This document shows positions 2,547 to 58,516 of a stretch of DNA of 64,000 nt, in pieces. The notes beneath the pieces are model-generated. The model was not told where the DNA came from, ran no database searches, and worked only from the letters and a program-made list of their open reading frames with translations. Each line of letters begins with the position of its first letter. Position 1 is the first letter of the stretch. The position numbers and the translations under genes are program-made. The stretch is from an uncultured Roseburia sp. (lineage in GTDB: Bacteria > Bacillota > Clostridia > Lachnospirales > Lachnospiraceae). Location of the stretch: contig CAMQVP010000001.1 of the NCBI GenBank assembly GCA_947038265.1, forward strand, positions 60,968 to 124,967, in the 5' to 3' direction.

Positions 2547-2630
2547 TGCCGGCGATGGGACTTGAACCCATACGACGTTGCCGCCAACAGATTTTGAGTC
2601 TGCCTCGTCTGCCAATTCCGACACGCCGGC
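2547..2630 (-). tRNA. tRNA-Leu, anticodon CAA
   Basis: The reverse complement reads GCCGGCGTGTCGGAATTGGCAGACGAGGCAGACTCAAAATCTGTTGGCGGCAACGTCGTATGGGTTCAAGTCCCATCGCCGGCA. It shows a 7-bp acceptor stem, the Leu-type D-loop GGAATTGGCAGAC, the anticodon loop CTCAAAA, a long variable arm and the T-arm GGGTTCAAGTCCC. CCA is not encoded. Confidence 0.85.
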
Positions 2631-17145: not shown

Positions 17146-18882
17146 ATGACAAACATAATTATGACTTTAACCAGATTAAGTTTTCTCACTTCTATTATGG
17201 CGCTTATTGTCTTAGGCATACGGTTCTGCTTAAGAAAAGCCCCAAAAACATACACCTATATTTTATGGATATTTGTATTTATCCGCGCAATCATGCCGGC
17301 GTCCTACACGTCTGACTACAGCCTGTGGAACCTAATGCAATCTTTCTTTTCCACACATCAGACAACAGCGCCTGCCACCAATGCAGAAACGCTTAAAGCC
17401 ATTTCAAAACCCTTTGCTTTTCCAAGAGACGCGGCAGCGGCTGTTTCACAAACCAAAGAAGCGGCCTTCACAACGCAAAACCTGTTCAACCCATGGATCA
17501 TAATAGCGGCGGTCTGGGCGCTTGGAATGTCCGTTATGCTGATTTACAGCCTGTATTCCATGCGAAAACTCCGTAAAACAGTAGAATTTTCCACTCTGTC
17601 CAAAACAGCCCATGCATCTGCAAACTGCCGCATTTACGAATCCGGACAGATCAAAACCGCATTTATTTTAGGATTTTTCTCTCCCGTCATCTACCTACCA
17701 AAAGGTCTCGGTTCGTCAAAAAAACAAATGATACTGGAACATGAATCTGTGCATATCCGCCGCCATGACCACCAGATCAAAATGGCCGCATGGATTATTT
17801 TATCCCTGCACTGGTTCAATCCCCTTATGTGGGTCAGCTTTTATTTTTTAAACAAAGATATGGAATTATCCTGCGACGAACAAGTGCTTATCAACCTTGG
17901 TTCCCAAATACGGGCTGACTACAGTTCCCTCCTGTTAGACCTTGCAATGCCAAACCGCATTTCCTCTGGGATGCCGCTTGCGTTCAGCGAAGGGAACACG
18001 AAAATCCGCATCAAAAATATACTGGCTTACCGGCCTGTGAAATTCGGCGCTTCCACAGCCGCAATCCTTTTAATCTGCATTACAATATATGGCTGCATGG
18101 GAAATCCAAAAAACGAGACAAGCGTCCCAGAAACCGAACAAACCAAACAAACTGAGCTGCAAAACGAAGGAACAGAACTTCCTGCCACACCGGAAGACGA
18201 AGAAAAACTTGCCTTCCTAAATACGTTTTTAGATAACTTAGCAAACTGCCGCGCCGAAGAAATTTACGCTGTTCTTTCACCGGAATTAAAAACGGAAGCC
18301 GACACATTTATGAACAACTCATTTAACATCACTCTAAACGAGCCAAAAAAACACAGGCGGATCAACCCATTCACCCCGACAGAAACGCCTGTAATTGAAA
18401 AAACAGATTCCGGATACCATTACAAATTCAAACGGCCAGATAATTATCCGCTCCCAGAATACGATAAATTTCATTCATCTGACGTTTGGGAAGGATTTCT
18501 GACGCTAGAGGAGACGGACAGCGGAATACAGGTTACAGAATGGCAAGACGGAAGTTATAATGAAATTGCCTCGCGCGAAGAATTTGACTGGCAGTTTCAA
18601 TACTATTCTTTTGAAAAAGAAGCAGAAACAGAACTAAACTGGCTGAATGAACACCCAGACGAAGTTGCTAATCTATACTATTACAACCGCGCAAACGAAG
18701 AACCGGAAAAAATCTTAACAGAGCGTTTCCATTTGAAAAATGGGACTGTAACAGACATCAACAAAGATAAAGAAAAAGAAATGCTTATCACATATAGCTG
18801 GGATGATGGCTCTGTGATATTCCGTATGGAACAGCTTTATAATGACATCTGGTATGTAACGGGAGCAGATACGGGGAAATAA
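17146..18882 (+). CDS. BlaR1-like M56 family membrane metalloprotease / signal transducer with a non-PBP C-terminal domain
   Basis: Four transmembrane segments and the zinc motif HESVHIRRHDH with a downstream ...ELSCDE.... The C-terminal region of about 270 aa is acidic and Y/W-rich and lacks the SxxK/KTG motifs of a penicillin-binding domain. Confidence 0.8.
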   Translation: MTNIIMTLTRLSFLTSIMALIVLGIRFCLRKAPKTYTYILWIFVFIRAIMPASYTSDYSLWNLMQSFFSTHQTTAPATNAETLKAISKPFAFPRDAAAAVSQTKEAAFTTQNLFNPWIIIAAVWALGMSVMLIYSLYSMRKLRKTVEFSTLSKTAHASANCRIYESGQIKTAFILGFFSPVIYLPKGLGSSKKQMILEHESVHIRRHDHQIKMAAWIILSLHWFNPLMWVSFYFLNKDMELSCDEQVLINLGSQIRADYSSLLLDLAMPNRISSGMPLAFSEGNTKIRIKNILAYRPVKFGASTAAILLICITIYGCMGNPKNETSVPETEQTKQTELQNEGTELPATPEDEEKLAFLNTFLDNLANCRAEEIYAVLSPELKTEADTFMNNSFNITLNEPKKHRRINPFTPTETPVIEKTDSGYHYKFKRPDNYPLPEYDKFHSSDVWEGFLTLEETDSGIQVTEWQDGSYNEIASREEFDWQFQYYSFEKEAETELNWLNEHPDEVANLYYYNRANEEPEKILTERFHLKNGTVTDINKDKEKEMLITYSWDDGSVIFRMEQLYNDIWYVTGADTGK

Positions 18883-18902: not shown

Positions 18903-19126
18903 AAGGAGAAGGGGCTTTCTAGCAAGGGCTGTGTTCAGGGATTAAGGGTTACTAAAGCCTTCCATATACACTTTTAAATACGGACGCAACCACCGCAAAC
19001 ACGCCTTCCATGGCGTGGCTGCGGTTTGCCCTGCCTTCCATGGCAGGGCATTGCTGACTGTGTATGGAAAGCTTAAGTAACCCTAAATCCCATCACAATG
19101 CCCTTGCTAGAAAGCCCCTTCTCCTT
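18903..19126. repeat. long nested palindromic element E1 (27-bp perfect terminal inverted repeats flanking 170 bp)
   Basis: Left arm AAGGAGAAGGGGCTTTCTAGCAAGGGC at 18903-18929; right arm GCCCTTGCTAGAAAGCCCCTTCTCCTT at 19100-19126. The interior has further imperfect inverted repeats (tgtgttcagggattaagggttactaaag ... gcttaagtaaccctaaatcccatcacaat) and a central dyad ccttccatggcgtgg/ccttccatggcaggg. Confidence 0.8.
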
Positions 19127-20092: not shown

Positions 20093-20334
20093 CATCGGGC
20101 GGATGCAATAGGGCTGTCTTGTTCGTTGCCTTGTGATTGGATTTAGAGTTTCTTAACAATCCCATTCCAGTCACAAGAATCCGCGAACAGGACGTTCGCG
20201 GAAGTCCTAATGCGCCATGGACGGCGCTTTTAGGACGGTTCTGTACGGCGCCAATAAAAAAACGGGATTGTTTAGAAACTCTTAATCCATGAACACAACA
20301 ACGAACAAGACAGCCCTATTGCATCCACCCGATG
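20093..20334. repeat. long nested palindromic element E2 (36-bp terminal inverted repeats with one mismatch, flanking 170 bp), related to E1
   Basis: Left CATCGGGCGGATGCAATAGGGCTGTCTTGTTCGTTG at 20093-20128; right CAACGAACAAGACAGCCCTATTGCATCCACCCGATG at 20299-20334. The inner inverted repeat ggatttagagtttcttaacaatccc / gggattgtttagaaactcttaatcc shares about 24 of 27 nt with the inner repeat of E1 (tgtgttca.ggattaag.gtt.ctaaa). Confidence 0.8.
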
Positions 20335-20418: not shown

Positions 20419-22242
20419 ATGGCTATCGGTTATCTAATCCTACAAGCCCGTACCGCGCACGATGCCGTCCCATTAAGCGGCGTCAGGATTAAAATCTTAG
20501 ATCCCCTCGGAAACAATGTCTATGAATTATCAACAGATGAAAACGGAGAAACGCAGAAAATCCCCCTTGAAACTTTAAGCAGAGATTTTTCCCTAAACCC
20601 CTATTTTACAGAACTTCCCTATATCAGTTACAATGTCCGCACCCTCGCGGACGGCTTCCATTCCCTTTTTGTATCGGATATTCCCATCTATGAAGGCGAA
20701 ACCGCTATCCTGCCGCTTACGCTGATTCCCATGGAAACGAACAGACGCAATGCGCTGCAAACGGAAATCTCTGTCGGAAAACCTGCAGTCGCAATGGATA
20801 AACCCCGCCATCAGGAAGGAATGCCACAGGGAAATTATGTGCTCAGGCAAGTCGTAATCCCAAATCCAATTACTGTGCATCTTGGCTCGCCTTCTTCGTC
20901 CGCTTCTAATGTGCGGGTTTCGTTTCCAGACTATATTAAGAACGTTGCAAGCAGTGAAATCTACCCAACATGGCCGGAAGCTTCTCTAAGAGCTAATATT
21001 TACGCCATTATCACGTTTGCCTTAAACCGCGTTTATACGGAATGGTACAGAAGCCGCGGCTATAATTTTGATATTACAAATAATACCGCCTACGACCAGT
21101 ATTTTGTCTATGGAAGGCCGATTTATGATTCCATCAGCAGGATTGTAGATGAAATTTTTAATGAATATGTCCGCAGGAAAGGTCAGAACAACCCATATTT
21201 TACCTCGTTTTGTAATGGAACGACTGCCACTTGCCAAGGGCTTTCGCAGTGGGGTACGGTTTCTTTGGCGGAACAGGGCATGACCCCGATTGGCATTCTC
21301 CGTTCTTATTATCCAAAGGATATTGAAATCGCGCAAACGGATATTATCACGGGTATGCTTTCTTCTTATCCGGAAACGCCGTTAAAGCTTGGAAGCCGCG
21401 GCTTGAATGTGCAGACGATCCAGACTTACTTAAACAGGATACGGAAAAATTATCCGGCTATCCCGAAGATTACTGATGAGACAGGTGTGTTTGGGAAAAG
21501 CACGCAGGACGCAGTGAAAAAATTCCAGTCTGTGTTTCACTTGGCTTCTGATGGGATTGTTGGAAAAAGCACATGGTATAAGATTTCAAGCCTTTATACT
21601 GCCGTTACCAGACTTGCGGAATTAAATGGAGAAGGGGAAACGCTTGGGATCGGGACTGTGCCGCCGGATTCTTTGCTCCGTCAGGGAAGCAGGGGTCAGG
21701 ACGTAATTATTTTACAGTATTTGCTAAATGTGATTTCTGAATATTATGTCGGAGTTCCAGCTCCTGCGCAGGACGGCATCTTTGGAAGCCAGACCGCTCA
21801 GGCTGTTTCGGCTTTTCAAAGGATTATGCGTTTAAATCCGGACGGCATTGTAGGGCCTTTGACTTGGAACGCGCTTTATGAGGCTTATCGGGGAATCGAG
21901 CAGAATATTCCGTCTTTTGGACCGGATCAAGGGACGATTGAATATATCGTTCAGGCAGGTGACACGCTTTGGGCGATTGCCAGAAAATACGGCACGACGG
22001 TTGATGTGTTGAAAAGTTTAAATGGATTAGACAGCGATTTACTGAGGATTGGACAGAAGCTGAAAGTGCCTGTTTCCCAGAGCGCCCCCTCCTATACCGA
22101 ATATACGGTGCAGTCGGGAGATACGCTTTGGTCGCTTGCAAAAAGATACCATACCACGGTAGATGCGATTAAGCAGTTAAATAATCTGTCAAGTGACTTA
22201 CTTAGGATTGGACAGATTTTAAAAATACCTGAAAACAGGTAA
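20419..22242 (+). CDS. SpoIID/LytB-domain cell-wall protein with 2 peptidoglycan-binding (PG_binding_1) and 2 LysM domains
   Basis: SpoIID-type motifs ...EASLRANIYAIITFALNRVY..., ...FDITNNTAYDQYFVYG... and ...CQGLSQWGTVSLAEQGMTPIGILRSYYP.... Two ...GSRG.NV..IQ.YLN...DGIVG..TW... modules and two C-terminal LysM repeats (YIVQAGDTLWAIARKYG... and YTVQSGDTLWSLAKRYH...). GGAG lies 9 nt upstream. Confidence 0.75.
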   Translation: MAIGYLILQARTAHDAVPLSGVRIKILDPLGNNVYELSTDENGETQKIPLETLSRDFSLNPYFTELPYISYNVRTLADGFHSLFVSDIPIYEGETAILPLTLIPMETNRRNALQTEISVGKPAVAMDKPRHQEGMPQGNYVLRQVVIPNPITVHLGSPSSSASNVRVSFPDYIKNVASSEIYPTWPEASLRANIYAIITFALNRVYTEWYRSRGYNFDITNNTAYDQYFVYGRPIYDSISRIVDEIFNEYVRRKGQNNPYFTSFCNGTTATCQGLSQWGTVSLAEQGMTPIGILRSYYPKDIEIAQTDIITGMLSSYPETPLKLGSRGLNVQTIQTYLNRIRKNYPAIPKITDETGVFGKSTQDAVKKFQSVFHLASDGIVGKSTWYKISSLYTAVTRLAELNGEGETLGIGTVPPDSLLRQGSRGQDVIILQYLLNVISEYYVGVPAPAQDGIFGSQTAQAVSAFQRIMRLNPDGIVGPLTWNALYEAYRGIEQNIPSFGPDQGTIEYIVQAGDTLWAIARKYGTTVDVLKSLNGLDSDLLRIGQKLKVPVSQSAPSYTEYTVQSGDTLWSLAKRYHTTVDAIKQLNNLSSDLLRIGQILKIPENR

Positions 22243-26755: not shown

Positions 26756-29700
26756 TTATTTTACTTTTACCTTAAATACTACTTTTTTACCTGTGCCATC
26801 TGTCGCAGCCGCCGTAATTTTCACTGTTTTGCCTTTCTTCGCATTTTTTGCAATTTTTACTTTTGCAGAAGCCGCCTGCTTGCCTTTCCCTTTTACAGTG
26901 GCAATCGCAGGATTCGAAGAAGTCCACTTCAATGCCTTATTCACGGGCTTACCGCCTTTTGTCTTTACTTTTGCTTTTAATGTGACTGTTTTATTCCGCG
27001 CCGCCGTTACGTTCTTTTTCCCGCTTGCCGTAACTTTAGACACGCTTCCCTTCATAATCTGAATCGTTGCCGTTGCAGACACTTTGCCATCTGCCGTTGA
27101 CGCCATAACGACAACTTTCTGTTTTGCTCCTTTCGCAGATAGCTTAACGCTGCCGCTTCCACTTAACTGCGCATACTTGTTATTTGAAGTAATTTTCCAT
27201 GTAAGCTTTTCACTTTTTGCGCTTTCTGGCAGAATCGTTAGTTCTTTTAGCAAATTAATTGATTTTCCTTTTGCTATTTGATATTTGGAAGATTGAAACT
27301 TCAAGCTAGTTACTTTCGTTGTTTTCGTTTCTTCTTTCTTTTCTGCTAAAGCTATCCTAGCTTTCGTAAGATTCGCCGTTAAAGTTTCAATACGCTGTTT
27401 TGAATATCCGGCTAATTGTTTATCCGTTATATTTTTCACAGAGTTATAAACATTGACAAACGCATTCCATGTTTTATCCGTATAATTCTTCTTTCCCGCC
27501 TGAATGATTCTTGCTGACGTCTGCCTTTCACTTTTAAATTTAGAAATTGCATTTTTCTTAGCCGTGTCTGTCTGAGTAGAGGAACCGCCATTATTCTGAT
27601 TTTCCTCATCTTTTTCCCAGTCTGCATAAAGCGTTAAGTCTTCCGTTACCGCTTCTTCTGAAAAATCAAAATCTTCTCTAAGCCCTTTATCCCGATACCA
27701 AACGCCGGTAAATGTATAACCGCTTCTTTTTGGAACCGTTTCCGGCGGGGTCACAAAACTTCCCGCTTCCACTTCTTTTGTCTCCGGCTGTGATCCTTCG
27801 TAGTTCCAGTCAAATGTCACCGTACATTTCTGCGCGCCAGACCCATTTTGATTCCATTCTGCATAAAGCGTCAGGTTATCCGTTACTTTTTCTGTCGTAA
27901 AGTCATATTCTTCCGTACATGCCTTATTCAAGTGCCATTTTCCTGTAAACGTATAGCCTTCCCGCTCCGGAGCTTCATCCGGCGGAGCCACACTGCTTCC
28001 GGCATCCACTTCTTTTCGAACTGTGTTTCCACCTTCATAATTCCAGTTAAATGTTACGATATAAGTTTCCGATGCCACTCCGTCTTGCCGCCAGCCTGCA
28101 TACAACGTCAAATTATCCGTTACTTTTTCTGTCGTAAAGTTATATTCTTCCGTACATGCCGCATCACGGTACCATTTTCCTGTAAACGTATAGCCTTCCC
28201 GCTCTGGAGCTTCATCCGGCGAAGCCACACTGCTTCCAGCATCCACTTCTTTCCGAATTGTCGTTGCGCCTTCATAATTCCAGTTAAATGTTACGATATA
28301 AGTTTCCGATGCCACTCCGTCTTGCCGCCAGCCTGCATACAACGTCAAATTATCCGTTACTTTTTCTGTCGTAAAGTTATATTCTTCCGTACATGCCGCA
28401 TCACGGTACCATTTTCCTGTAAACGTATAGCCTTCCCGCTCCGGAGCTTCATCCGGCGAAGCCACACTGCTTCCGGCATCCACTTCTTTCCGAATTGTCG
28501 TTGCGCCTTCATAATTCCAGTTAAATGTCACGATATAGGTTTTTGACGCCACTCCATCTTGCCGCCAGCCTGCATACAATGTGAGGTCGCTTGTTACATT
28601 TTCCGTAAAATCATATTCTTCCGTACATGCCGCATCACGGTACCATTTTCCTGTAAACGTATAACCTTCCCTGTTTGGAGCCGTAAGCGGAGCCACTGCC
28701 GGACTGCCGGATTCCACAGTCTTCGTCTCAACGTCAGCTCCCTCATAATTCCAATTAAATGTCACGTTATGTTCAGGAATTTTATCCTGATTCCAGCCTG
28801 CATAAAGCGTCATATTGCCTGTTACCTTCTCTGTAGCAACGTCAAATTTCTGAGCGCAGTCTGCATCCCGATACCACTCTCCCGTAAAGGTATAGCCTTC
28901 CCTGTTCGGAGCCGTGTCTGGAGCTGTCACTACACTGCCTTTCTCTGCTTCTACTCTTTCAGTTGATGCATTTTCATAATTCCAATGGAATGTAACCGTA
29001 TAAATAGGCACAAGATCATCGATTGCATTTTGCAAATCCGCCGCCACACTGTCTACCCTGCTTTGCGCAACGTACGCGCTGTCTTTTATCTTTTCTGCCG
29101 AAGCTATTTCCGTTCTTAACGCCTCTAAACTGGAAGCGGTATATTTTCCTGAAAGATGAATTGCCGCTTCTTTTAAAAGATCTTCCAATACAGATTTATC
29201 CACGGACGTCCCATCTGTCAAATCCTCTAATGCTGACAACAACGCATTTTTTGCTTCCCTGATTTCATCAAATGTCGCAGAATCTCCTTTTTCTGCCACT
29301 GCTTTCGCCTGATCATACGCCTCAACATATGCTGTCCATTTTACCGGATTATAAAATTCTGCATCGTCTTTTATAAATTCTGCCGCTTCGCAGAGACTAT
29401 CTAAATCAGCCTTTATATCCGATAGTTCAACATCTTTTGTATATGACATCGCCGTTTCCAGCTTACTTTTCACCTGCCGGATCAGATCGGTAGAGTCACA
29501 ATCAGCCGCTATTTCACGGGCTTCTGCAATCGCCGCCTGCAATTTTGTCCAGCTTTCCTCTGAAAAATCCGTTTTTTCCAGATTTTCCGCCTCTTGGATT
29601 AGCCGGTTTATTTCCGTTTTGGCTGTTTCCAACTCCTCTTCATTCTCTGTTTTCCAGCCTGCATAAAGCGTGATCGATTCCGTAACTTTCTCTGTATTAA

Positions 29701-32700
29701 AATCGTATTCCGTCTTACAAACCGCTTCTTTATACCACTTTCCGGTAAATATCTGCCCTTCTCTCTCTGGCGTCTCCTCCGGTTCTGTCGCGGCAAATCC
29801 ACTTGTCACTTTATTCGTGATGTTCGTTGAGCCAGAATAATTCCAATCGAACGTAACCGTATAGACTTCTATCAGCGCAGTCGCTGTCCTGTTTAATTTT
29901 TCTAACGCTTCGTCAATCTCTGATAAAGATGCGTTCCCTTTGTTTAAAACTTCATCGGCTTTTTTACGCGCATGATCAAAAGCTGTAAAGCTTGCGGCAG
30001 TATAGGCATCTGCCTGATATGCTGCGCTCATATACTTCGTGTATAAAGTCTGCAGCTGCTCTTTCTTTGCAGTGATCTCATTCAATGCGCTGTTATTCAA
30101 TGCGCTGTTTAAACTGTCCGTCGCTGCTTTTAAGCTGGAAACTGTAACGCCGTCTTTTAAAATCGCTTTTGCTTTTGTAATTGCTCCTCTTAAAGCGAGC
30201 CATCCTTTCTCTGAATAATCGCTTTCTTCTTTTCCTTCAGCAGTTTTAATTAACGATTCTAAATCCGCTATCCCGTCTACCAGCGTCCGATTCGCCGCCA
30301 TATATCCTTGCTCTACAGGATTGCTGGAATAATCAATATCCAAATGCGCCAGAATTTCCTTTATCGCCGCATAGTTTCCATGTCCACTAAATACTTGAAT
30401 TTGTAAATAATGCCCAAATTTCCCATCTTTGTTTGTAGTTTCCGGCAGCGCCAAAACTTCTTCTGTACCGGTTATATCTGTAACTTTCTCTCCTTCCACT
30501 CTATTAATTCCCGTTTCTGGATTGTTCATTATCTGATAAGTGGATTCATTATAGGCATCGCCTGTAACCAATTTATATGACTGAATATACCCATTGGTTC
30601 CACTCGGCTTTTGTAAGGCTTCTATCGAATCATATTCTGATAAATCCCTTGGAAATTCAACCGTAAACACCGCCGGATTTGTTTCTGAAACTGTAAATCC
30701 GCTATACTGTGAATGCCAGTATGTATTTAATTTTCCATCTACTGCCAAATTTGCGACGCCATCGCCATAAGTATTTCCATTCTTGTTATTCTCTTGGGTA
30801 TTCGCCCACGCTTTTCCACTGAGATCTTCATCTCCCTCATACTGTTCCGGCAGCGTCACAGTAGCGCTCACACGCTCAGACGTCCCATCACTAAAAACAG
30901 CCTCTGCCGTTATTGTAGCCGTGCCAACTCCTACAAAATATACATTTCCATACTTATCGACAAGGGCAACATCCTCATCACTGGAGCTCCAAGAAATACT
31001 TGGATTCTGCCCGTTGCTGTTTCTAAAAACAGCTTTTAATTTGACTGAATCTTTCGCAGTAACCACTTCTACATTTGATGGGCTGATCACAGTTTCTTCT
31101 GTTGCCGGCAGAATATTGCTGACTTTAATTGTCGTCTCCGGTGTGCCTGCAAAGGCAATTTTTCCTGCTGTGTCAGCGCTCACTGAGCCGCCTGCATCTT
31201 CCTGTTCAAAAATCTTTTCCCCATTAATCTCTAAGCTGAATTTCCGATCATTTGTCCATGATATCCGGACTCTTTTCAGATTGTCCGCTCCCGGATTATC
31301 TTCTCTATCTCCTTGATACCATGGGGAGTTGTCTTCTGAATACTTTTGCCAAAACCAGCCATAGTCATCAAATCCGAAAAACATGCCTAATGCTTTGTCA
31401 CTTCCATTCTTATAACCCATATACACGCCCATCCAGTTCTTGCCGGTATATTCCAAATCAAATTCGAAAAATCCCTCATGGGTAAAATCAAATGTCTGTT
31501 TACTTACAAATGTTGTCGGAGAGCTGTAAGAGCTGGATGAACCGCCCGTTAACTCCAATACTCCATTTTGAGACGAAACAACCGCGCCATTCGGGTTCCT
31601 GTCAGCTATCCATTCTCCTTCCAAAATTTCAGGCGGAATTTCTTTCCACTTTGCATATAGGATAAGATTGCTCTTTACAACTGCGTTAAAATCATATTTT
31701 TTCTCAAACTTACTGTCCGCATACCAGTTGACAAACTCATATCCTTCTTTTTCCGGCATTTCGTAAAGCATTTCTTTCGTCGGCTTTACTGCTTTTCCAT
31801 TTAATGCAACCGTCTGGCTTAAAGCATGCACTTCGGCGCCGTCACTCATAAAAGTCACCGTAAATGTCTTTTTCTCCAGATTTATTGCGTCAATTGCCGC
31901 TTTTGCCGCTTTCAGCGCAGCATTTACTCCCGCAATATCCGACGCTTTGTCAATATTCGCTTTGCCTTCCGCGATTGCGCGCTTTAGTTCAATTCTCTGG
32001 TCATATTCATTGATATTCGTATAATTGTCAAGTTTCTGTTTCGCTTCCTCCTTTGCCTGCGCCAATTCTCTTTCTGCCGCCTGCTCTTTTGTTTCAATCG
32101 AATCCAGATTTTCTTTCGCTTCCTGCAATGCGGCGTTCATGCCGGATATATTCATCGCTTTGTCAATCGCCGCTTCTCCTGCCGCAATCGCTTCCGCCCT
32201 TTTCGTCTTGCTTTCAGCGCCATAGTTGTCCGCGTTCGTATATTCGTTCAATTCCGTCTTTTTTGCATTCTTTAAAGTCTGAATCGCTGTAACTATCCCT
32301 GCCAGATTCTCTTTCACAACAACTTTACATGCAAAAGATTGTGACTCCTCATCAGCATAAGCCGCCGTAACTGTTGTTTCACCTGCTCCAACTGCCGTAA
32401 TAATGCCATTTTCGTCCACTGACGCTGCTCCCGGATTCGAAGAAGTCCAGACTGCCTTTCCCCTATCATCCTGCAAAAGGGACAAATTCTCCGCTATCGC
32501 AGCGCGGTCACCCGAAACCAGATAAATATTCTCTTTATTATCCTGATTCCCAAATGCCGCTTCCTTAAATACGGCAGTTGAACCGGACGGGCCTGACGTT
32601 TCAATTTTTAGATTGCGAATCCCTTCAATATCAAGGGATAACGACGTTTCCAAATCTCCTGCTGAAGTGTCAAATTGATACAATGGCTGTGGATTGTCAT

Positions 32701-35700
32701 CCCCATAAATTTTCACCTCAGCCGCATTATTTCCCAAACTTCCTTCTATGACGATCTGAGAAGTAAATTTGTCAAATTCCTTTCCAATTAAATCCGCAGT
32801 AACCGTAGTCCCAGCCGGAATTGAAACTGATTTTAAGGTCTCATCTTTTTGGACAGAGGCATCCCAACTGCCTAATGTCAAATCGCTGAGATAACTGGTT
32901 GTCAAAGCTTTCTCAAACTTCTCATAAAGACAAAATTCTGCCGCCGTAATAAATTTATTTGCCCCGCCCTCTCCTGCGGTAGTCAGCGCGCGGATTCTAA
33001 TTCTTCTTGCATTTTTTGCGTCAAACTCCAAACTCTTTGTATTGGCATTATCCGCCCATGTAATGGACGGTAAAGTGATTTTTTTAAAATCCTCGCCGCT
33101 TTCCGTCTCGCTGTAATATAATTCACAAGAAAGAATCCTTCCGTTATTATTATTACCTTGCCTTGGAACATAATCCAATTTCCCAATGTCTATATTTTCA
33201 GGAAGCGTAATTGTATAATTCCCCGGAACATTAACCTGATCATATTTCGTATGCCAAATCGTCCCTAAATCTTTGTCAAGGGCTTTCTGCGCCCCTTCAT
33301 CTACGCTGTTTTGGCTGTCCGCCACGGCGCTTAACGCGCTTGAGTCTATTTTGTGATAACCATAAATTGTTTGCTCGTGCCCCAGGATACGGCCATAAAC
33401 CGCATCATACGCCGCCTTTTCCTCATCATCTAACAGCTCATATGCCTTTGCAAGCGCAATTTTTGCATTATGGAACTTGCTTTCAGAAGCCAAATCGTCC
33501 ATTGCCATATGCTCCAACAGATAATCGGAATAACTGTTCATCATGGACACAAACACGTCTTTTTGCTTTGCTTCATTCCAGCCTTGCTGCATAAGCCCTC
33601 TGTCTGTCATCACATAGGTCACAGTTTTTATCCCGCTGTTTCCTTCAATATAATACGCCGGAATATCTTTTTTAGTATACTGGCTTGTATAATACATTTT
33701 TCCAATTTCTTCATGATCCAGTTCTATTTTCGTTCCAACCGGAAAGTCAAAATCCTCATTATACGCATCCGCTTTATCTTTTCCAGTTAAAGTCCGGTCA
33801 AACACTTTCGTCCCAGACGAATTATACACACGGACTGCGACATACTTATTCTCAAAATATACATGCGGCTCTACATTATTGATTCTGACGTTAATCTTAT
33901 TTTCCCCTGTTTTTTGCGAAACAACGATAATTTCGCCGCCCATGCCCGTCATACGGATCTGCATATCGTCCGCCAGCAGGTTGCCTGTTACTTTTTTATA
34001 TTCCAAATCCTTCGTAACGGCTCCTTTTGCCGCTACCAGATACTCATTGCCATACTGATAGTTTTTTTCCCGTGGCATTGGAAGCTCTACTTCATAAATG
34101 CCCACTGGGAGAGTCGCCGTAATCTGGGCGTTTTCAACCGGAAGCCGCTTAACAATCTTTGACCCGTTTTTGATAACGACATATTTTCCCTGGATCTTTT
34201 CTAAGTCATCAATCGACACATTCAACGTAACATTGCTTGTGTCATTCCGTTGAAGCTCCGCCAAATCGTCTGTGCTGACAAGGCTGTAAATGCCGTTCAT
34301 TACCTTGCCTTTTTCTGCAAGCGCCTGACGGACTGTTTCCGCTTCTTCATCGTTTGTATAGAGATTTCTCAGATAATAAAGCATCGGCAAATCCTGATCA
34401 TAAATTTTATCTTCTAAAACTTCCGATGCGTGGATATGCCATCCTTCAAAATAAGGGATTACATTATATCCGCCCGTCTGGCTGAAACTCTCTACGATCG
34501 CCTCTGAAGAAGACATATTGCTTCCATGCTCGTAATTATATTTACGGAAAGTCGTATGCATTGCCGCCGTCGTTTTTTCCGGTCCCAGACGGTCGAGCAT
34601 ATTGACAAACATAAACAGACTGTTCTTATACATTTTCCGTCCTGCAGTGATGTCATTAAATACAGGCACTGCATTACGCGTCTGCTCCGATTCCCTTCCG
34701 AGCGCATTATACGCTTCCAGTTTCGTACTTCCATACCCGCCTAAAAGCCATCCAAAATCCTTCTCCGGACGGTAAGTCGGTTCAAAATAATATCCCATAA
34801 TATTATTCGTCGTCTCTACAAAAGAGTTTTCCTGATTTGCAATCGCCCCTTCATACCCATGCCCGAACTCATGCAGGGAAGTCCAGTCTTTATACAAATA
34901 GGAGCCAAGATTATCCCCGTGGAACGCGCTGTGATCTCCGGAATAGTATGCAAGTCCTGCGCCATTTACGTTCGCTTTAATAAAGAATTTTGCCCGAACG
35001 TTTTGATTATAAGGCTTATCCGTATAAAAATCCAATCCGGAATACGCATCATACTGTTCTTCAAATGCCGCCGCCCAGTCTAACATCTCATCAATCGTAT
35101 GAAATTGGTAGACTGGATCGTTTTTCTTATCCGGATGATCTATAATCTCATACCTGTTCTTCCTTGGCGCCAAAAACGTAGCCGCCTGCCCTTCTATAAT
35201 CGCAAACGAATCTTCTGTTTTATCCCAATCAGAAAAGAACGCCGACTCATCATCTCCATACCGGTAATAAGGAATATCACGGTAAGCATCGTTCCATTCC
35301 ACCTCAACCACCGGCTGTACCGTCGTATTCTTTGGCGTATAAATAAACGGCACGCTGTCCACGCTCTTTTTCTTCTCATTTTCTATACACTGGTTTTTTA
35401 CCGTGATCCATTCCCCACCAGCAGGAATGCGGACAGAATCCTTCGGGTCAGACTCTTCCTCTCCCTTCACTTCAACCAGTTTTTCCGTAGTTGCATCAAT
35501 ATTCAAAAGCTTTAAATTCAATTCTTTCGTAAACTCTGTATGATTAACCAGACGGATTTTCATAGTTTCATTTTCCGGCAGCCAAAAACCCAGATTCTGC
35601 CTGTCATGGTTATATCCTCTGTTAAACCCGATATTCGTCAAATGGGACGCGTCCGGAAGCGTATACAAGATCCTCTTGATATTCTTTTTCTCCGTGTCCC

Positions 35701-36094
35701 CACTGTCCTTTGCTAAAACGGATACCGTAAGCGTATGTTCCGCTGTTCTGCCGTCCGAGTCCGTCACCCGGTATGTAACCGTCTGATCGCCTAACTTAGA
35801 CGTATCGATCGATCCTGTCTGGACAATATTCTTCGTTAAATCTCCATCTTCCTGATCATCTGCAAAAACAATATTCCTGCTATTTTCATAGTCGAACTCT
35901 TCCCCCTGATAGATCCAAGTCTTTAAAGTTCCCGATAAAAACGGCGTCCGATACGCATCAAACCCATTTTCCGATTCATTTGCAGTTTTTGCAGTATCCG
36001 GCGCTTCCGCCGCTTTCAAATTCATACCGGGCATTATGCCAAGCGCCATTGCAGATGCAAGAACCACTGCACAACTCTTTTTTAAAAACCCCAT
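26756..36094 (-). CDS. giant secreted M60-like (enhancin-type) zinc metalloprotease/adhesin carrying F5/8-type-C, Big_2, FIVAR and about 8 Listeria-Bacteroides (Flg_new) repeats
   Basis: 3112 aa counted from the ATG at 36094, which has GGAGG 10 nt upstream. Signal peptide MGFLKKSCAVVLASAMALGIMPG. The zinc site is LHEFGHGYEG (HExxH) in an M60-like context. There are two discoidin-like segments (...LGTIWHTKYDQ... and ...LNTYWHSQYSG...), alpha-helical FIVAR-like units (...AKENLDSIETKEQAA...), 79-aa repeats YIVTFNWNYEG...GYTFTGKWYRDAACTEEY...LTLYAGW, Big_2-like C-terminal domains and a lysine-rich tail. No LPXTG motif is visible. Confidence 0.85.
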   Translation of the reverse strand: MGFLKKSCAVVLASAMALGIMPGMNLKAAEAPDTAKTANESENGFDAYRTPFLSGTLKTWIYQGEEFDYENSRNIVFADDQEDGDLTKNIVQTGSIDTSKLGDQTVTYRVTDSDGRTAEHTLTVSVLAKDSGDTEKKNIKRILYTLPDASHLTNIGFNRGYNHDRQNLGFWLPENETMKIRLVNHTEFTKELNLKLLNIDATTEKLVEVKGEEESDPKDSVRIPAGGEWITVKNQCIENEKKKSVDSVPFIYTPKNTTVQPVVEVEWNDAYRDIPYYRYGDDESAFFSDWDKTEDSFAIIEGQAATFLAPRKNRYEIIDHPDKKNDPVYQFHTIDEMLDWAAAFEEQYDAYSGLDFYTDKPYNQNVRAKFFIKANVNGAGLAYYSGDHSAFHGDNLGSYLYKDWTSLHEFGHGYEGAIANQENSFVETTNNIMGYYFEPTYRPEKDFGWLLGGYGSTKLEAYNALGRESEQTRNAVPVFNDITAGRKMYKNSLFMFVNMLDRLGPEKTTAAMHTTFRKYNYEHGSNMSSSEAIVESFSQTGGYNVIPYFEGWHIHASEVLEDKIYDQDLPMLYYLRNLYTNDEEAETVRQALAEKGKVMNGIYSLVSTDDLAELQRNDTSNVTLNVSIDDLEKIQGKYVVIKNGSKIVKRLPVENAQITATLPVGIYEVELPMPREKNYQYGNEYLVAAKGAVTKDLEYKKVTGNLLADDMQIRMTGMGGEIIVVSQKTGENKINVRINNVEPHVYFENKYVAVRVYNSSGTKVFDRTLTGKDKADAYNEDFDFPVGTKIELDHEEIGKMYYTSQYTKKDIPAYYIEGNSGIKTVTYVMTDRGLMQQGWNEAKQKDVFVSMMNSYSDYLLEHMAMDDLASESKFHNAKIALAKAYELLDDEEKAAYDAVYGRILGHEQTIYGYHKIDSSALSAVADSQNSVDEGAQKALDKDLGTIWHTKYDQVNVPGNYTITLPENIDIGKLDYVPRQGNNNNGRILSCELYYSETESGEDFKKITLPSITWADNANTKSLEFDAKNARRIRIRALTTAGEGGANKFITAAEFCLYEKFEKALTTSYLSDLTLGSWDASVQKDETLKSVSIPAGTTVTADLIGKEFDKFTSQIVIEGSLGNNAAEVKIYGDDNPQPLYQFDTSAGDLETSLSLDIEGIRNLKIETSGPSGSTAVFKEAAFGNQDNKENIYLVSGDRAAIAENLSLLQDDRGKAVWTSSNPGAASVDENGIITAVGAGETTVTAAYADEESQSFACKVVVKENLAGIVTAIQTLKNAKKTELNEYTNADNYGAESKTKRAEAIAAGEAAIDKAMNISGMNAALQEAKENLDSIETKEQAAERELAQAKEEAKQKLDNYTNINEYDQRIELKRAIAEGKANIDKASDIAGVNAALKAAKAAIDAINLEKKTFTVTFMSDGAEVHALSQTVALNGKAVKPTKEMLYEMPEKEGYEFVNWYADSKFEKKYDFNAVVKSNLILYAKWKEIPPEILEGEWIADRNPNGAVVSSQNGVLELTGGSSSSYSSPTTFVSKQTFDFTHEGFFEFDLEYTGKNWMGVYMGYKNGSDKALGMFFGFDDYGWFWQKYSEDNSPWYQGDREDNPGADNLKRVRISWTNDRKFSLEINGEKIFEQEDAGGSVSADTAGKIAFAGTPETTIKVSNILPATEETVISPSNVEVVTAKDSVKLKAVFRNSNGQNPSISWSSSDEDVALVDKYGNVYFVGVGTATITAEAVFSDGTSERVSATVTLPEQYEGDEDLSGKAWANTQENNKNGNTYGDGVANLAVDGKLNTYWHSQYSGFTVSETNPAVFTVEFPRDLSEYDSIEALQKPSGTNGYIQSYKLVTGDAYNESTYQIMNNPETGINRVEGEKVTDITGTEEVLALPETTNKDGKFGHYLQIQVFSGHGNYAAIKEILAHLDIDYSSNPVEQGYMAANRTLVDGIADLESLIKTAEGKEESDYSEKGWLALRGAITKAKAILKDGVTVSSLKAATDSLNSALNNSALNEITAKKEQLQTLYTKYMSAAYQADAYTAASFTAFDHARKKADEVLNKGNASLSEIDEALEKLNRTATALIEVYTVTFDWNYSGSTNITNKVTSGFAATEPEETPEREGQIFTGKWYKEAVCKTEYDFNTEKVTESITLYAGWKTENEEELETAKTEINRLIQEAENLEKTDFSEESWTKLQAAIAEAREIAADCDSTDLIRQVKSKLETAMSYTKDVELSDIKADLDSLCEAAEFIKDDAEFYNPVKWTAYVEAYDQAKAVAEKGDSATFDEIREAKNALLSALEDLTDGTSVDKSVLEDLLKEAAIHLSGKYTASSLEALRTEIASAEKIKDSAYVAQSRVDSVAADLQNAIDDLVPIYTVTFHWNYENASTERVEAEKGSVVTAPDTAPNREGYTFTGEWYRDADCAQKFDVATEKVTGNMTLYAGWNQDKIPEHNVTFNWNYEGADVETKTVESGSPAVAPLTAPNREGYTFTGKWYRDAACTEEYDFTENVTSDLTLYAGWRQDGVASKTYIVTFNWNYEGATTIRKEVDAGSSVASPDEAPEREGYTFTGKWYRDAACTEEYNFTTEKVTDNLTLYAGWRQDGVASETYIVTFNWNYEGATTIRKEVDAGSSVASPDEAPEREGYTFTGKWYRDAACTEEYNFTTEKVTDNLTLYAGWRQDGVASETYIVTFNWNYEGGNTVRKEVDAGSSVAPPDEAPEREGYTFTGKWHLNKACTEEYDFTTEKVTDNLTLYAEWNQNGSGAQKCTVTFDWNYEGSQPETKEVEAGSFVTPPETVPKRSGYTFTGVWYRDKGLREDFDFSEEAVTEDLTLYADWEKDEENQNNGGSSTQTDTAKKNAISKFKSERQTSARIIQAGKKNYTDKTWNAFVNVYNSVKNITDKQLAGYSKQRIETLTANLTKARIALAEKKEETKTTKVTSLKFQSSKYQIAKGKSINLLKELTILPESAKSEKLTWKITSNNKYAQLSGSGSVKLSAKGAKQKVVVMASTADGKVSATATIQIMKGSVSKVTASGKKNVTAARNKTVTLKAKVKTKGGKPVNKALKWTSSNPAIATVKGKGKQAASAKVKIAKNAKKGKTVKITAAATDGTGKKVVFKVKVK
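27610..29010 (-). repeat. intragenic tandem repeats of 237 bp (79 aa); two adjacent copies are identical at protein level and flanking copies are near-identical
   Basis: Period-237 DNA repeats, e.g. ccagcctgcatacaacgtcaaattatccgttactttttctgtcgtaaagttatattc recurs at about 28091 and about 28328. The protein copies YIVTFNWNYEGATTIRKEVDAGSSVASPDEAPEREGYTFTGKWYRDAACTEEYNFTTEKVTDNLTLYAGWRQDGVASET occur twice, flanked by close variants. Confidence 0.85.
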
Positions 36095-36358
36095 AACAAA
36101 TAAGACCTCCTTCTGAAAATTGTTCACAAAATGTACAGTTATTCTCATTATAGAATCTTTCCTGCCATTTTACAACCACTTTTTTACATTATTTTTTCAA
36201 AAAAATATAAGCCAAACAGACAGAAAGCAGTCAGCGGATCACATCGAAAATGCAAACAAGCTGAAATCAATTTCATATAGTTTGCACAAAATTCTTATGC
36301 CAAATTTATCAAAAACGCCTATTTACAATCTAAAGAATACCATATATCCTATAAAAAT

Positions 36359-58158: not shown

Positions 58159-58384
58159 CGTTTCGTTCCTCTCCTTTTGTAAATCAACACGACATACGAT
58201 TATATATTATTTTAATGACATTTTTTCAATAACGCTTATAACAGCATATTTCCATTCATAATTAAATACACATTATCCACTAATTATAAACCACATAAAG
58301 TGATACTCTAATCATCTTTTCGTGGTACACAGTCTATAGCGTATTAATTTATTATTTTCAATGTTTTTTCAAAATCTTAATCAA

Positions 58385-58516
58385 TTATAAAACACATACA
58401 TTATCTTCTTCTGTACTATATATAAAATTCCAATCACAATTCTGATAATTTTTATCACTATAAATTTTTTCAATCTGAGATTGTATGTAGTGAATTACAT
58501 TGAAATCTTTAGACAT
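58385..58516 (-). CDS. small ORF (43 aa) translationally coupled to hsdS
   Basis: The start AACAATGTCTAA overlaps the hsdS stop, and AAAAGGAGG lies 13 nt upstream. The product is MSKDFNVIHYIQSQIEKIYSDKNYQNCDWNFIYSTEEDNVCVL. It is not in the ORF track because it is shorter than 60 aa. Confidence 0.3.
   Translation of the reverse strand: MSKDFNVIHYIQSQIEKIYSDKNYQNCDWNFIYSTEEDNVCVL

What the first reader, a model, noticed from the sequence alone, without database searches (positions are those of the whole stretch)
26756..36094. Secreted multidomain M60-like metalloprotease of 3112 aa with near-identical 237-bp tandem repeats
The HEFGH zinc site in an enhancin/M60-like context, combined with two F5/8-type-C carbohydrate-binding modules, indicates a glycoprotein-targeting protease and adhesin. 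Mucin is the most likely substrate, and such proteins are typical of gut commensals and pathogens. Two adjacent copies of the 79-aa Listeria-Bacteroides repeat are identical at protein level and the neighbouring copies are near-identical, which makes this a recombination hotspot. Repeat copy number probably varies between strains and may be collapsed in assemblies. The C-terminus carries no LPXTG or SLH anchor and ends in a lysine-rich tail, so the mode of surface attachment is unclear.
Basis: partly seen in the sequence, partly recalled or inferred. Interest (0 to 1): 0.5.

Follow-up and report, generated by a model that had tools for sequence, protein, structure and literature searches.

The report
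Giant surface mucin-cutting protease gene
This is a real 3112-residue secreted enzyme of a mouse-gut Lachnospiraceae bacterium. It belongs to a known family of proteases that cut sugar-coated proteins such as mucin, so the gene is an ordinary new member; the less ordinary part is its strongly positively charged tail, a widespread candidate cell-surface anchor.

Summary
The gene lies on the minus strand, 26756-36094. It encodes 3112 aa with a signal peptide and a ribosome-binding site, and many gene callers use an upstream ATG giving 3130 aa.

The HEFGH sits in WTSLHEFGH, the WXXXHEXXH motif of Peptidase_M60. Pfam PF13402 scores 42 bits against a cut-off of 25.8. The closest solved relative is EfmM60 of Enterococcus faecium (E 3e-34; profile 4e-64), a proven mucinase and O-glycopeptidase. 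The top 24 Foldseek hits of a confident AlphaFold model are all M60 O-glycopeptidases.

After the protease come:
- Mucin_bdg and one firm CBM32, plus one marginal CBM32
- a GH101_N-like domain
- FIVAR helices
- eight Listeria-Bacteroides repeats, six of them in tandem

Only two repeat units are near-identical (3 synonymous differences in 237 nt). Public assemblies of the same species carry 6, 5 or 4 units with hybrid units. All are short-read metagenome assemblies, and the two 4-unit contigs whose names give coverage are low-coverage. Real polymorphism is therefore plausible but unproven.

The "lysine-rich tail" is a tandem of two Big_2 domains with pI 10.7, while the rest of the protein has pI 4.7. 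This module is strictly C-terminal, recurs on many unrelated secreted proteins of Lachnospiraceae, and replaces the dockerin or LPXTG found in related M60 proteins. It is probably a non-covalent wall anchor.

The parts
26756..36094 (-). Coding sequence of the 3112-aa secreted multidomain Peptidase_M60 protein (stop codon 26756-26758)
   Evidence: ORF list and translation. It is 99% identical to P0001, and its 3130-aa extension is identical to P0023.
36106..36175 (-). Expression signals: promoter-like TTGTAA-17-TATAAT (36147-36175) and ribosome-binding site GAAGGAGG (36106-36113)
   Evidence: These are consensus matches only. They favour ATG 36094 over ATG 36148.
36011..36094 (-). Sec-type signal peptide, aa 1-28 (MGFLKKSCAVVLASAMALGIMPGMNLKA)
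   Evidence: This is the only hydrophobic segment in the protein. The n/h/c layout was read from the sequence. Orthologues have the same kind of N-terminus.
35717..35938 (-). Bact_surface_Ig-like domain (PF16403, formerly DUF5011), aa 53-126
   Evidence: 43.2 bits against a cut-off of 27. NCBI names the orthologue only after this domain.
33935..35707 (-). M60 O-glycopeptidase module, aa 130-720: N-terminal beta-sandwich, thermolysin-like helical core and C-terminal beta-sandwich. Pfam PF13402 covers aa 274-552 (34439-35275).
   Evidence: PF13402 at 42.1 bits. EfmM60 at E 3.4e-34, and 3.7e-64 with a profile. AlphaFold2 model with pLDDT 88 and pTM 0.84. The top 24 Foldseek hits are all M60 enzymes.
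34859..34885 (-). Catalytic motif W404-TSL-H408-E409-FG-H412 (WXXXHEXXH). The probable third zinc ligand is E427 and the conserved pair is N430-N431, both just downstream.
   Evidence: Motif found. W, H, E, H and NN are invariant in 16 homologues. The motif definition comes from PMC13580078. Assigning E427 as the ligand is an inference from my reading of the homologue sequences, in which this position is E or D.
33662..33910 (-). Mucin_bdg module (PF03272), aa 729-811
   Evidence: 52.6 bits against a cut-off of 27. It is also present in M60-clade relatives.
32963..33319 (-). F5/8 type C (CBM32-like) module 1, aa 926-1044
   Evidence: 50.4 bits against a cut-off of 28.2.
31178..31555 (-). GH101_N-like beta-sandwich, aa 1514-1639
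   Evidence: PF17995 at 46.2 bits. It matches the N-terminal domain of the solved pneumococcal endo-alpha-N-acetylgalactosaminidase 3ecq at E 2.7e-7.
30503..30772 (-). F5/8 type C (CBM32-like) module 2, aa 1775-1864 (marginal)
   Evidence: 22.3 bits, below the cut-off of 28.2. It matches the CBM32 modules 2v72, 4a41 and 2j7m at E 1e-4 to 5e-4.
29015..30277 (-). Helical FIVAR repeats (aa ~1940-2074 and ~2150-2360) flanking the isolated Flg_new unit 2 (aa 2078-2145). An earlier isolated Flg_new unit 1 lies at 31649-31864.
   Evidence: FIVAR at 55.3 and 45.2 bits, Flg_new at 49-57 bits.
27617..29002 (-). Tandem array of six Listeria-Bacteroides (Flg_new) repeats, R3-R8, aa 2365-2826
   Evidence: Adjacent identities are 0.62, 0.71, 1.00, 0.86 and 0.56.
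28064..28537 (-). The near-identical pair R5 (28301-28537) and R6 (28064-28300): same protein sequence, 3 synonymous differences in 237 nt
   Evidence: The longest exact run at an offset of 237 is 173 nt.
26759..27319 (-). Polycationic C-terminal tandem Big_2 module, aa 2926-3112 (pI 10.7, 22.5% Lys, net +38), ending ...TDGTGKKVVFKVKVK-COOH. Candidate non-covalent cell-wall anchor.

Best explanation
The gene encodes a Sec-secreted, zinc-dependent O-glycopeptidase ('mucinase') of the Peptidase_M60 superfamily. It belongs to the divergent branch that contains Enterococcus faecium EfmM60, which its authors call clade 13.

Proposed mechanism:
- The catalytic module (aa 130-720) binds the alpha-O-GalNAc of an O-glycosylated Ser/Thr. 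The Trp of WXXXHEXXH and the conserved Asn pair take part in this binding.
- The Mucin_bdg, CBM32-like and GH101_N-like modules that follow hold the enzyme on O-glycan-rich substrate.
- The long C-terminal half (FIVAR helices and eight Listeria-Bacteroides repeats) acts as an extended stalk. Its length is evolutionarily plastic and may vary through unequal recombination among the 237-bp units.
- The last 187 residues, two lysine-rich Big_2 domains, hold the otherwise very acidic protein on the cell surface by electrostatic binding to anionic wall polymers.

Shown here: family membership, the motif, the fold, the domain order, the charge dichotomy, the recurrence and strict C-terminal position of the tail module, and the length differences between assemblies.

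Inferred: enzymatic activity, mucin as the substrate, the stalk role, and the anchoring role.
For: Family and fold:
- PF13402 above its gathering score.
- EfmM60 at E 3.4e-34, and 3.7e-64 with a profile.
- EfmM60 is a metal-dependent mucinase that cleaves only O-glycosylated substrates (PMC13580078).
- The WXXXHEXXH motif is present, and W, H, E, H and NN are invariant in 16 homologues.
- AlphaFold2 model with pLDDT 88. Its top 24 Foldseek hits are all M60 O-glycopeptidases: ZmpA/B/C, IMPa, AM0627, BT4244 and 4fca.

Accessory modules.

Secretion: signal peptide and no other hydrophobic segment.

Stalk plasticity: orthologues keep the N-terminal half, but their Flg_new count ranges from 0 to 7 and they lack near-identical neighbouring units.

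Anchor:
- The C-terminal 187 aa have pI 10.7 and net +38, against pI 4.66 and net -173 for the rest.
- 313 tblastn-confirmed loci were found in species-representative genomes. The 78 loci kept are nearly all Lachnospiraceae, with several per genome.
- In all 78 loci examined the module ends at the stop codon.
- Terminal Big_2 domains carry +27.5 per 100 aa and penultimate ones +18.0, while internal Big_2 domains of the same proteins carry -2.7.
- The cargo proteins are unrelated: GH43, GH13, GH16, GH78, M64, BspA-type LRR, and a BNR-domain (sialidase-type) protein.
- M60 relatives at 37-41% identity carry a dockerin or an LPKTG sorting signal in the same terminal position.
Against: - No activity, substrate or localisation data exist for this protein or for any close orthologue.
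- Identity to EfmM60 is only about 30%.
- The whole-protein Pfam scan missed the M60 domain.
- The authors of the EfmM60 paper stress that the physiological substrates of this clade may not be mucins.
- The second CBM32 is below the Pfam threshold.
- The anchoring role of the basic Big_2 tandem rests on composition, position and distribution only. The single literature statement found is a 'likely mediate cell attachment' remark for a Roseburia mannanase.
- A cationic tail could instead bind sialylated or sulfated mucin.
- The two 4-unit repeat variants whose contig names give coverage come from contigs at 3.7x and 6x, so they may be artefacts.
Confidence: 0.7

Rival explanations
1. The protein is released rather than cell-bound. 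In this reading the polycationic Big_2 tail is a substrate-targeting module that binds the negatively charged (sialylated or sulfated) mucin gel or other anionic polymers, not the bacterium's own wall.
For: The charge dichotomy fits binding to any polyanion. No covalent anchor or membrane segment is present. The protein already carries several glycan-binding modules aimed at mucin.
Against: The same tail sits on GH43, GH13 amylase-type, GH16 and GH78 enzymes and on BspA-type LRR proteins, whose substrates are neutral plant or starch glycans. In related M60 proteins the equivalent position holds a dockerin or an LPXTG signal, both of which attach to the cell. A Roseburia enzyme with C-terminal Ig-like domains was localised extracellularly by immunofluorescence (PMC6385246). 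I did not check whether that enzyme's Ig-like domains belong to this basic subfamily.
Confidence: 0.2
2. The enzyme is an O-glycopeptidase whose main substrates are not secreted mucins. Candidates are other O-glycoproteins such as the IgA1 hinge, epithelial glycocalyx proteins, or dietary and microbial glycoproteins. In that case 'mucinase' would be a misnomer.
For: EfmM60 and EfcM60 cleave an IgA1-hinge linker. Their authors argue that substrates in this clade depend on context, because homologues occur in environmental strains. Another protein with the same tail carries an IgA peptidase M64 domain.
Against: The module set here (Mucin_bdg, CBM32-like, GH101_N-like) and the mouse-gut origin point to mucin-type O-glycans. 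A BNR-domain (sialidase-type) giant protein shares the same tail. This rival differs from the main explanation only in the target, not in the mechanism.
Confidence: 0.25
3. The differences in repeat number between assemblies are assembly artefacts: collapse of R5/R6, and chimeric joins at shared 50-51-nt stretches. In this reading the locus is stably six units in nature.
For: All variant sequences come from short-read metagenome assemblies. R5 and R6 share exact runs of 147-173 nt, longer than k=127. The two 4-unit hybrid forms whose contig names give coverage come from SPAdes contigs at 3.7x and 6.0x. One database member is a partial protein that ends inside the array. The 6-unit form is the commonest and is reproduced exactly in 67 blocks of the collection.
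Against: The 5-unit form is listed in 40 blocks, and it occurs on two different allelic backgrounds. The hybrid junctions lie exactly where homologous recombination would be expected. Related species show large differences in repeat content, so the region does change over evolutionary time.
Confidence: 0.45
4. The M60 domain is catalytically dead, and the protein is purely a fibrillar adhesin.
For: The overall architecture (Ig-like domains, repeats, a stalk) resembles fibrillar adhesins.
Against: The complete WXXXHEXXH motif, a conserved acidic residue downstream and the Asn pair are all intact and conserved across homologues down to 30% identity. The fold is predicted with high confidence.
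Confidence: 0.05

Closest known systems
EfmM60 (Enterococcus faecium MDV4556911 metallopeptidase domain; PDB 35ym) with EfcM60 and Serratia SmE: Peptidase_M60 'clade 13'
   Same: It is the best sequence match among solved structures (E 3.4e-34; profile 3.7e-64), aligned across the N-terminal sandwich, the catalytic core and the C-terminal sandwich. It has the same WXXXHEXXH motif, and the parent protein is multimodular. Its mucinase activity is metal-dependent and it cleaves only O-glycosylated substrates.
   Different: Identity is only about 30%. The enterococcal parent proteins are 1010-1521 aa, against 3112 aa here. The accessory modules, the Flg_new array and the polycationic Big_2 tail were not compared and are not described for the enterococcal proteins. 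Nothing has been measured for the window's protein.
Clostridium perfringens ZmpA/ZmpB/ZmpC and other solved M60 O-glycopeptidases (BT4244, IMPa, AM0627, B. anthracis 4fca)
   Same: They share the fold: Foldseek E 1e-16 to 1e-9 with probability 1.00. ZmpB is likewise a large Firmicute enzyme that combines M60 with CBM32 modules (entry titles 7jfs and 7js4).
   Different: Sequence identity is 11-14% and TM-scores are about 0.5. A sequence profile barely reaches these proteins (4fca at E 1e-3, BcM60C at E 0.04). They belong to a different clade of the superfamily.
Dockerin- or LPXTG-terminated M60 + Mucin_bdg proteins from metagenomes (P0064, P0065, P0068-P0072)
   Same: They are 37-41% identical over the whole M60 module, have the same M60 then Mucin_bdg order, and have signal peptides.
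   Different: They are about 900 aa long with no Flg_new/FIVAR stalk. They end in a dockerin (cellulosome-type attachment) or an LPKTG sorting signal with a membrane segment, not in the basic Big_2 tandem.
Roseburia intestinalis RiGH26 and similar multimodular Lachnospiraceae enzymes with C-terminal Ig-like domains
   Same: They are secreted multidomain enzymes of the same bacterial family. [quoted passage not shown]
   Different: The catalytic activity is different (mannanase). The attachment statement is a hypothesis in that paper too. I did not check that the RiGH26 domains belong to the same lysine-rich subfamily.
Listeria InlB (own knowledge, not tested here)
   Same: It contains the founding 'B-repeat' of the Listeria-Bacteroides repeat family. 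It is held on the surface non-covalently by strongly basic C-terminal GW modules that bind lipoteichoic acid, which is an analogy for a cationic, non-covalent C-terminal anchor.
   Different: GW modules are SH3-like, not Big_2. InlB is an LRR invasin, not a protease. The NCBIfam internalin hit here (125 bits against a cut-off of 1050) most likely reflects only the shared repeat.

Membership tests
Peptidase_M60 (enhancin-like O-glycopeptidases) | Match to Pfam PF13402 at or above the gathering score | tested here: met
   42.1 bits (aa 274-552) and 40.0 bits against a cut-off of 25.8 when N-terminal segments are scanned. It is not listed in the whole-protein scan, but it is among the precomputed hits for orthologue P0001.
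Peptidase_M60 (enhancin-like O-glycopeptidases) | WXXXHEXXH motif (zinc ligands, catalytic Glu, GalNAc-contacting Trp) | tested here: met
   W404-TSL-H408-E409-F-G-H412. It is invariant in 16 homologues. The motif is as defined in PMC13580078.
Peptidase_M60 (enhancin-like O-glycopeptidases) | Third zinc ligand (acidic residue) downstream of HEXXH, and the conserved active-site Asn | tested here: inconclusive
   On my reading of the homologue sequences, E427 (HEXXH+15) is E or D in homologues, and N430/N431 are invariant. They align with EfmM60 '..IIDVLNN..'. Which residue binds zinc was not verified on coordinates.
Peptidase_M60 (enhancin-like O-glycopeptidases) | Fold: thermolysin-like helical core flanked by two Ig-like beta-sandwich domains | tested here: met
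   AlphaFold2 model of aa 130-720 with mean pLDDT 88.0 and pTM 0.84, arranged beta / alpha / beta. Foldseek against the PDB: ranks 1-24 are all M60 enzymes, E 1.7e-16 to 1.2e-9.
Peptidase_M60 (enhancin-like O-glycopeptidases) | Metal-dependent cleavage that requires an O-glycan on the substrate | not testable with these tools
   This needs recombinant enzyme with glycosylated and unglycosylated substrates. It has been shown for the relative EfmM60 only.
Peptidase_M60 clade 13 (EfmM60/EfcM60/SmE branch) | Closer to clade-13 members than to other characterised M60 enzymes | tested here: met
   EfmM60 at E 3.7e-64, against 1e-3 or weaker for all other solved M60 sequences. No phylogeny was built, so the clade assignment rests on best hits only.
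F5/8 type C / CBM32 | Pfam PF00754 above the gathering score | tested here: met
   Module 1 (aa 926-1044) scores 50.4 bits against 28.2, which meets the test. Module 2 (aa 1775-1864) scores 22.3 bits and does not, although it matches solved CBM32 modules at E 1e-4.
Listeria-Bacteroides repeat (Flg_new, PF09479 / TIGR02543) | Repeated matches to the family models | tested here: met
   335.6 bits with 8 stretches. TIGR02543 at 210 bits with 8 stretches.
Sortase-anchored (LPXTG) surface protein | C-terminal LPXTG-like motif followed by a hydrophobic segment and a basic tail | tested here: not met
   There is no LPxT[GASN] anywhere and no hydrophobic segment outside the signal peptide. A relative, P0065, does have LPKTG with a membrane segment.
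SLH, CWB2, LysM, GW or dockerin-attached surface protein | Presence of the corresponding attachment module | tested here: not met
   None of these families appears in the Pfam or NCBIfam scans of the whole protein or of its ten segments.
Lysine-rich C-terminal tandem Big_2 module of Lachnospiraceae (uncurated grouping defined here) | Two Big_2 domains at the extreme C-terminus, strongly basic, ending ...TDGxxKKxx[VI]K[IV]K[IV]K, on an acidic secreted protein | tested here: met
   Window: pI 10.7 for the tail against 4.66 for the rest. All 78 related loci have the module at the stop codon, with tail pI 10.1-11.6. A wall-binding function was not tested.

The most novel reading that the evidence does not exclude
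The polycationic tandem Big_2 C-terminus (…TDGSGKKxxVKIKIK-COOH) may be a dedicated non-covalent cell-wall retention module that has not been characterised experimentally. In that reading it defines much of the surface-displayed enzyme repertoire of Lachnospiraceae (glycoside hydrolases, proteases, LRR adhesins) and plays the role that LPXTG/sortase or dockerin/cohesin plays in relatives. This M60 giant would be one of its largest cargoes, and the length of its Flg_new stalk would be tuned by unequal recombination.
Probability: 0.45. Interest if true: 0.55.

Novelty: new member of a known kind. Interest (0 to 1): 0.36.

Why it matters
Peptidase_M60 O-glycopeptidases are enzymes that gut bacteria use to cut the mucin barrier, and they are useful tools for glycoproteomics. 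Almost all characterised examples come from Bacteroides, Akkermansia, Clostridium perfringens, Pseudomonas and now Enterococcus.

This gene shows that an abundant, uncultured mouse-gut Lachnospiraceae lineage carries a very large enzyme of the EfmM60 branch. Public annotation labels its orthologue only as 'DUF5011 domain-containing protein', so mucin-degrading capacity in this family may be under-counted.

The more general point is the tail. If the lysine-rich Big_2 tandem is a wall anchor, it gives a simple sequence rule for predicting which Lachnospiraceae enzymes are cell-bound. That matters for models of cross-feeding on mucin and fibre.

The repeat array also shows that short-read assemblies cannot be trusted for the length of such proteins.

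Tried and rejected
- **Whole-protein Pfam scan.** It did not report M60. This was resolved by scanning segments.
- **NCBIfam 'neuraminidase' and 'internalin H' hits.** They score 151 and 125 bits against cut-offs of 900 and 1050, and their best stretches lie in the Listeria-Bacteroides repeat region. I rejected them as functional calls.
- **First AlphaFold2 run, 8 sequences.** pLDDT was below 50 over the catalytic core, so the model was discarded. The second run used 16 more diverse sequences and was usable.
- **Profile search of the C-terminal module against 1.84 billion representatives.** It returned about 104,000 generic Big_2 proteins, led by long tandem arrays. It says nothing about the basic subfamily.
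- **Search with the C-terminal 186 aa in the 90% clusters.** It returned mostly short, contig-truncated fragments. These were useful only for showing the conserved C-terminal ending.
- **Literature searches for a described lysine-rich Big_2 anchor.** They found only the RiGH26 remark.
- **Genome scan.** It did not return the window's own species among the 80 kept loci. Taxonomy therefore rests on 'Eubacterium sp.' for MAG protein MCI9427561.1, on mouse-gut sample names, and on Lachnospiraceae relatives.
- **Other copies in the window.** I looked for further proteins carrying the tail or the repeat in the 64-kb window and found none.
- **An operon with glycosidases or a sortase.** The neighbours are housekeeping genes: pfkB, alpha-amylase family and LacI on one side, and hisA-like, dapF and an aminotransferase on the other.
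Full report
**1. What is in the sequence**

The window has one very long open reading frame on the minus strand, 26756-36148, 3130 aa.

- This ATG is preceded by GAAGGAGG with an 11-nt spacer. The upstream ATG has no such site.
- A promoter-like TTGTAA-17-TATAAT ends at 36147, so a transcript from it would not contain the upstream ATG. This is a consensus match only.
- Gene callers are split between the two starts. The 3130-aa translation is identical to database protein P0023, which is listed in 67 blocks of the assembly collection. The 3112-aa form of another strain, P0001, is 99% identical with 21 substitutions.

The N-terminus is the only hydrophobic segment, so the product is a soluble Sec-secreted protein with no membrane anchor.

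**2. The protease**

There is a single HExxH, HEFGH at aa 408-412, inside WTSLHEFGH.

- A Pfam scan of the whole protein did not list M60. Scans of the N-terminal region give Peptidase_M60 PF13402 at 42.1 and 40.0 bits against a gathering score of 25.8, covering aa 274-552.
- Against all solved structures the best match by far is chain 35ym_A, 'EfmM60': E 3.4e-34 with the single sequence and 3.7e-64 with a profile of eight orthologues. The alignment runs from aa ~140 to ~675.
- The paper describing EfmM60 (Glycobiology 2026, PMC13580078) shows a metal-dependent mucinase that cuts only O-glycosylated linkers (Tn, core 1, sialyl-core 1, core 2). It has a thermolysin-like core flanked by two Ig-like domains and the motif WXXXHEXXH. 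The authors place it in a divergent 'clade 13' with Serratia SmE, at under ~20% identity to other characterised M60 enzymes.
- The window's protein has that motif. W, H, E and H, and a downstream Asn pair (N430, N431), are invariant in 16 homologues down to 30% identity.
- On my reading of the homologue sequences, E427 is E or D throughout, so it is the likely third zinc ligand. This is an inference.

A first AlphaFold2 model from eight sequences was poor in the core. A second from 16 more diverse sequences reached mean pLDDT 88.0 and pTM 0.84. In a Foldseek search of the PDB, ranks 1-24 (E 1.7e-16 to 1.2e-9) are all M60 O-glycopeptidases: B. anthracis 4fca/5ev7, C. perfringens ZmpA/B/C, IMPa, AM0627 and BT4244. 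Nothing unrelated scores better than E 4e-3. The M60 assignment is therefore supported by four independent tests. Enzymatic activity itself is inferred.

**3. The rest of the architecture (aa coordinates)**

| Region (aa) | Module |
|---|---|
| 53-126 | Bact_surface_Ig-like (DUF5011) |
| 130-720 | M60 module |
| 729-811 | Mucin_bdg |
| 926-1044 | F5/8 type C, 50.4 bits |
| ~1092-1170 | weak NPCBM-like stretch, below threshold |
| 1208-1261 | Big_2 |
| 1411-1482 | Flg_new unit 1 |
| 1514-1639 | GH101_N-like sandwich; matches solved pneumococcal endo-alpha-GalNAc-ase 3ecq at E 2.7e-7 |
| 1667-1748 | Big_2 |
| 1775-1864 | second F5/8C-like stretch, 22.3 bits (below 28.2); matches solved CBM32 modules at E 1e-4 to 5e-4 |
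| ~1940-2074, ~2150-2360 | FIVAR helices |
| 2078-2145 | Flg_new unit 2 |
| 2365-2826 | six tandem Flg_new units |
| after the array | a short basic helical linker |
| 2926-3112 | two Big_2 domains |

**4. The repeats**

TRF reports period 237, 3.4 copies and 92% matches at 27859-28671.

- Units R5 (28301-28537) and R6 (28064-28300) encode the same 79 residues and differ at three synonymous sites.
- R7 is 84% nt / 78.5% aa identical to them, R4 is about 71-75% aa identical, and R8 is 61% nt identical.
- The longest exact stretch at an offset of 237 is 173 nt. R4/R5 share an exact 51-nt run and R5/R7 an exact 50-nt run.

Among members of the same 90%-identity cluster, protein lengths fall into classes that differ by whole units: 3112/3130, 3033/3051 and 2954/2955. 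Dissecting the arrays gives the following:

- R3-R4-R5-R6-R7-R8. This is the window's form.
- R3-R4-R5/6-R7-R8.
- Three different four-unit forms containing R4|R5 and/or R5|R7 hybrid units, with junctions at the shared 50-51-nt runs.

This is what unequal homologous recombination would produce. Several points weaken that reading:

- Every sequence comes from a short-read metagenome assembly.
- The 5-unit example is a MEGAHIT k127 contig, and the R5/R6 identity run exceeds 127 nt.
- The two four-unit contigs whose names give coverage are at 6.0x and 3.7x.
- One member is a partial protein that ends inside the array.

In favour of some real variation, the 5-unit form is listed in 40 blocks and occurs on two allelic backgrounds. 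Over longer evolutionary time the region clearly changes. Orthologues at 43-67% identity keep the N-terminal half but have 0-7 Flg_new units, mostly dispersed. Their adjacent pairs are only 46-61% identical, and the closest orthologues have just two units. The R4-R7 expansion is therefore recent and specific to this lineage.

The window's own six-unit array is not an artefact peculiar to this assembly, because the identical protein recurs in 67 blocks of the collection. The examples retrieved for this locus include both MEGAHIT- and SPAdes-named contigs.

**5. The C-terminus**

There is no LPXTG-like motif and no membrane segment. No SLH, CWB, LysM, GW or dockerin family is listed among the Pfam or NCBIfam hits. 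The 'lysine-rich tail' is a tandem of two Big_2 domains. Its 187 residues have pI 10.7, 22.5% Lys and net charge +38, while the rest of the mature protein has pI 4.66 and net charge -173.

- All M60 orthologues P0001-P0015 end in the same way, as does the 3228-aa BNR-domain (sialidase-type) protein P0019.
- Database fragments with this module all stop at the same point...TDGSGKKxxVKIKIK.
The 78 kept are nearly all Lachnospiraceae (Roseburia, Dorea, Anaerobutyricum, Butyrivibrio, Robinsoniella and many MAGs), with up to five per genome.
- In all 78 loci examined the module ends at the stop codon. The last 190 residues have pI 10.1-11.6, and the remainder has pI 4.1-5.5 with one exception.
- Within these same proteins, the terminal Big_2 carries +27.5 net charges per 100 aa and the penultimate +18.0, while internal Big_2 domains carry -2.7.
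- The cargo is unrelated from protein to protein: GH43, GH13, GH16, GH78, IgA-peptidase M64, BspA-type LRR, DUF6273 and hexosaminidase-associated domains.
- Relatives of the M60 module at 37-41% identity are ~900-aa proteins that end in a dockerin (P0064, P0068, P0069, P0070, P0072, P0077) or in LPKTG plus a membrane segment (P0065).

A portable, strictly terminal, polycationic module on acidic secreted proteins, in the position where relatives carry known attachment devices, is best explained as a non-covalent anchor to anionic wall polymers. The only published statement I found is that the C-terminal Ig-like domains of Roseburia RiGH26 'likely mediate cell attachment' (PMC6385246). The function remains untested.

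**6. Context**

Neighbouring genes are housekeeping and are conserved in other strains: a divergent pfkB, an alpha-amylase-family gene and LacI on one side, and hisA-like, dapF and an aminotransferase on the other. There is no glycosidase cluster or sortase. Source samples are mouse-gut metagenomes and MAGs. NCBI labels the MAG orthologue 'DUF5011 domain-containing protein [Eubacterium sp.]'.

**7. Verdict**

- The gene is a new member of a known kind, a giant clade-13-type Peptidase_M60 O-glycopeptidase.
- Copy-number polymorphism is plausible but cannot be separated from assembly error with the available data.
- The most interesting by-product is the basic Big_2 tail as a candidate general surface-retention module of Lachnospiraceae.
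- Overall interest is modest.

Noticed in passing
window 26759-27319 (minus); loci L003-L080: The lysine-rich tandem Big_2 C-terminus is a recurrent, strictly C-terminal module on many unrelated secreted proteins of Lachnospiraceae (GH43, GH13, GH16, GH78, M64, LRR_5, BNR/sialidase-type), with several copies per genome. Terminal domains carry about +27 net charges per 100 aa, while internal Big_2 domains in the same proteins carry about -3.
   Followed up: yes
proteins P0064, P0065, P0068-P0072, P0077 (relatives of window aa 130-720): Relatives of the same M60 + Mucin_bdg core, about 900 aa long, end in a dockerin or in an LPKTG sortase signal instead of the basic Big_2 tail. The catalytic core has therefore been combined with three different attachment devices.
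   Followed up: partly
window 36094 vs 36148 (minus): Many public gene calls start at the upstream ATG (3130 aa), which adds 18 residues before the signal peptide. The ribosome-binding site at 36106-36113 and a promoter-like -10 box ending at 36147 favour ATG 36094.
   Followed up: partly
window 18931-19098 (-) and 20131-20296 (+): There are two full-length TwoAYGGAY RNA motifs (131 and 121 bits) in an AT-rich ~1.5-kb gap. The second lies about 120 nt upstream of a 607-aa PG_binding_1 + LysM protein (20419-22242). The first lies just after a BlaR1-type M56 gene (17146-18882).
   Followed up: partly
window ~55183-61975 (minus): A low-GC block (0.30-0.37, against ~0.44 elsewhere) encodes a type I restriction-modification system: HsdR 991 aa, HsdS 425 aa and HsdM 729 aa. 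It was probably acquired horizontally.
   Followed up: partly
protein P0031 (orthologue), corresponding to window aa ~985-1006 in CBM32 module 1: One database variant lacks 22 residues inside the first F5/8C module (…DYVPRQG|KKITLP…). This could be a real deletion or an assembly error.
   Followed up: no
window 2547-2630 (minus): A single tRNA gene (Rfam, 54 bits). It is unrelated to the finding.
   Followed up: no
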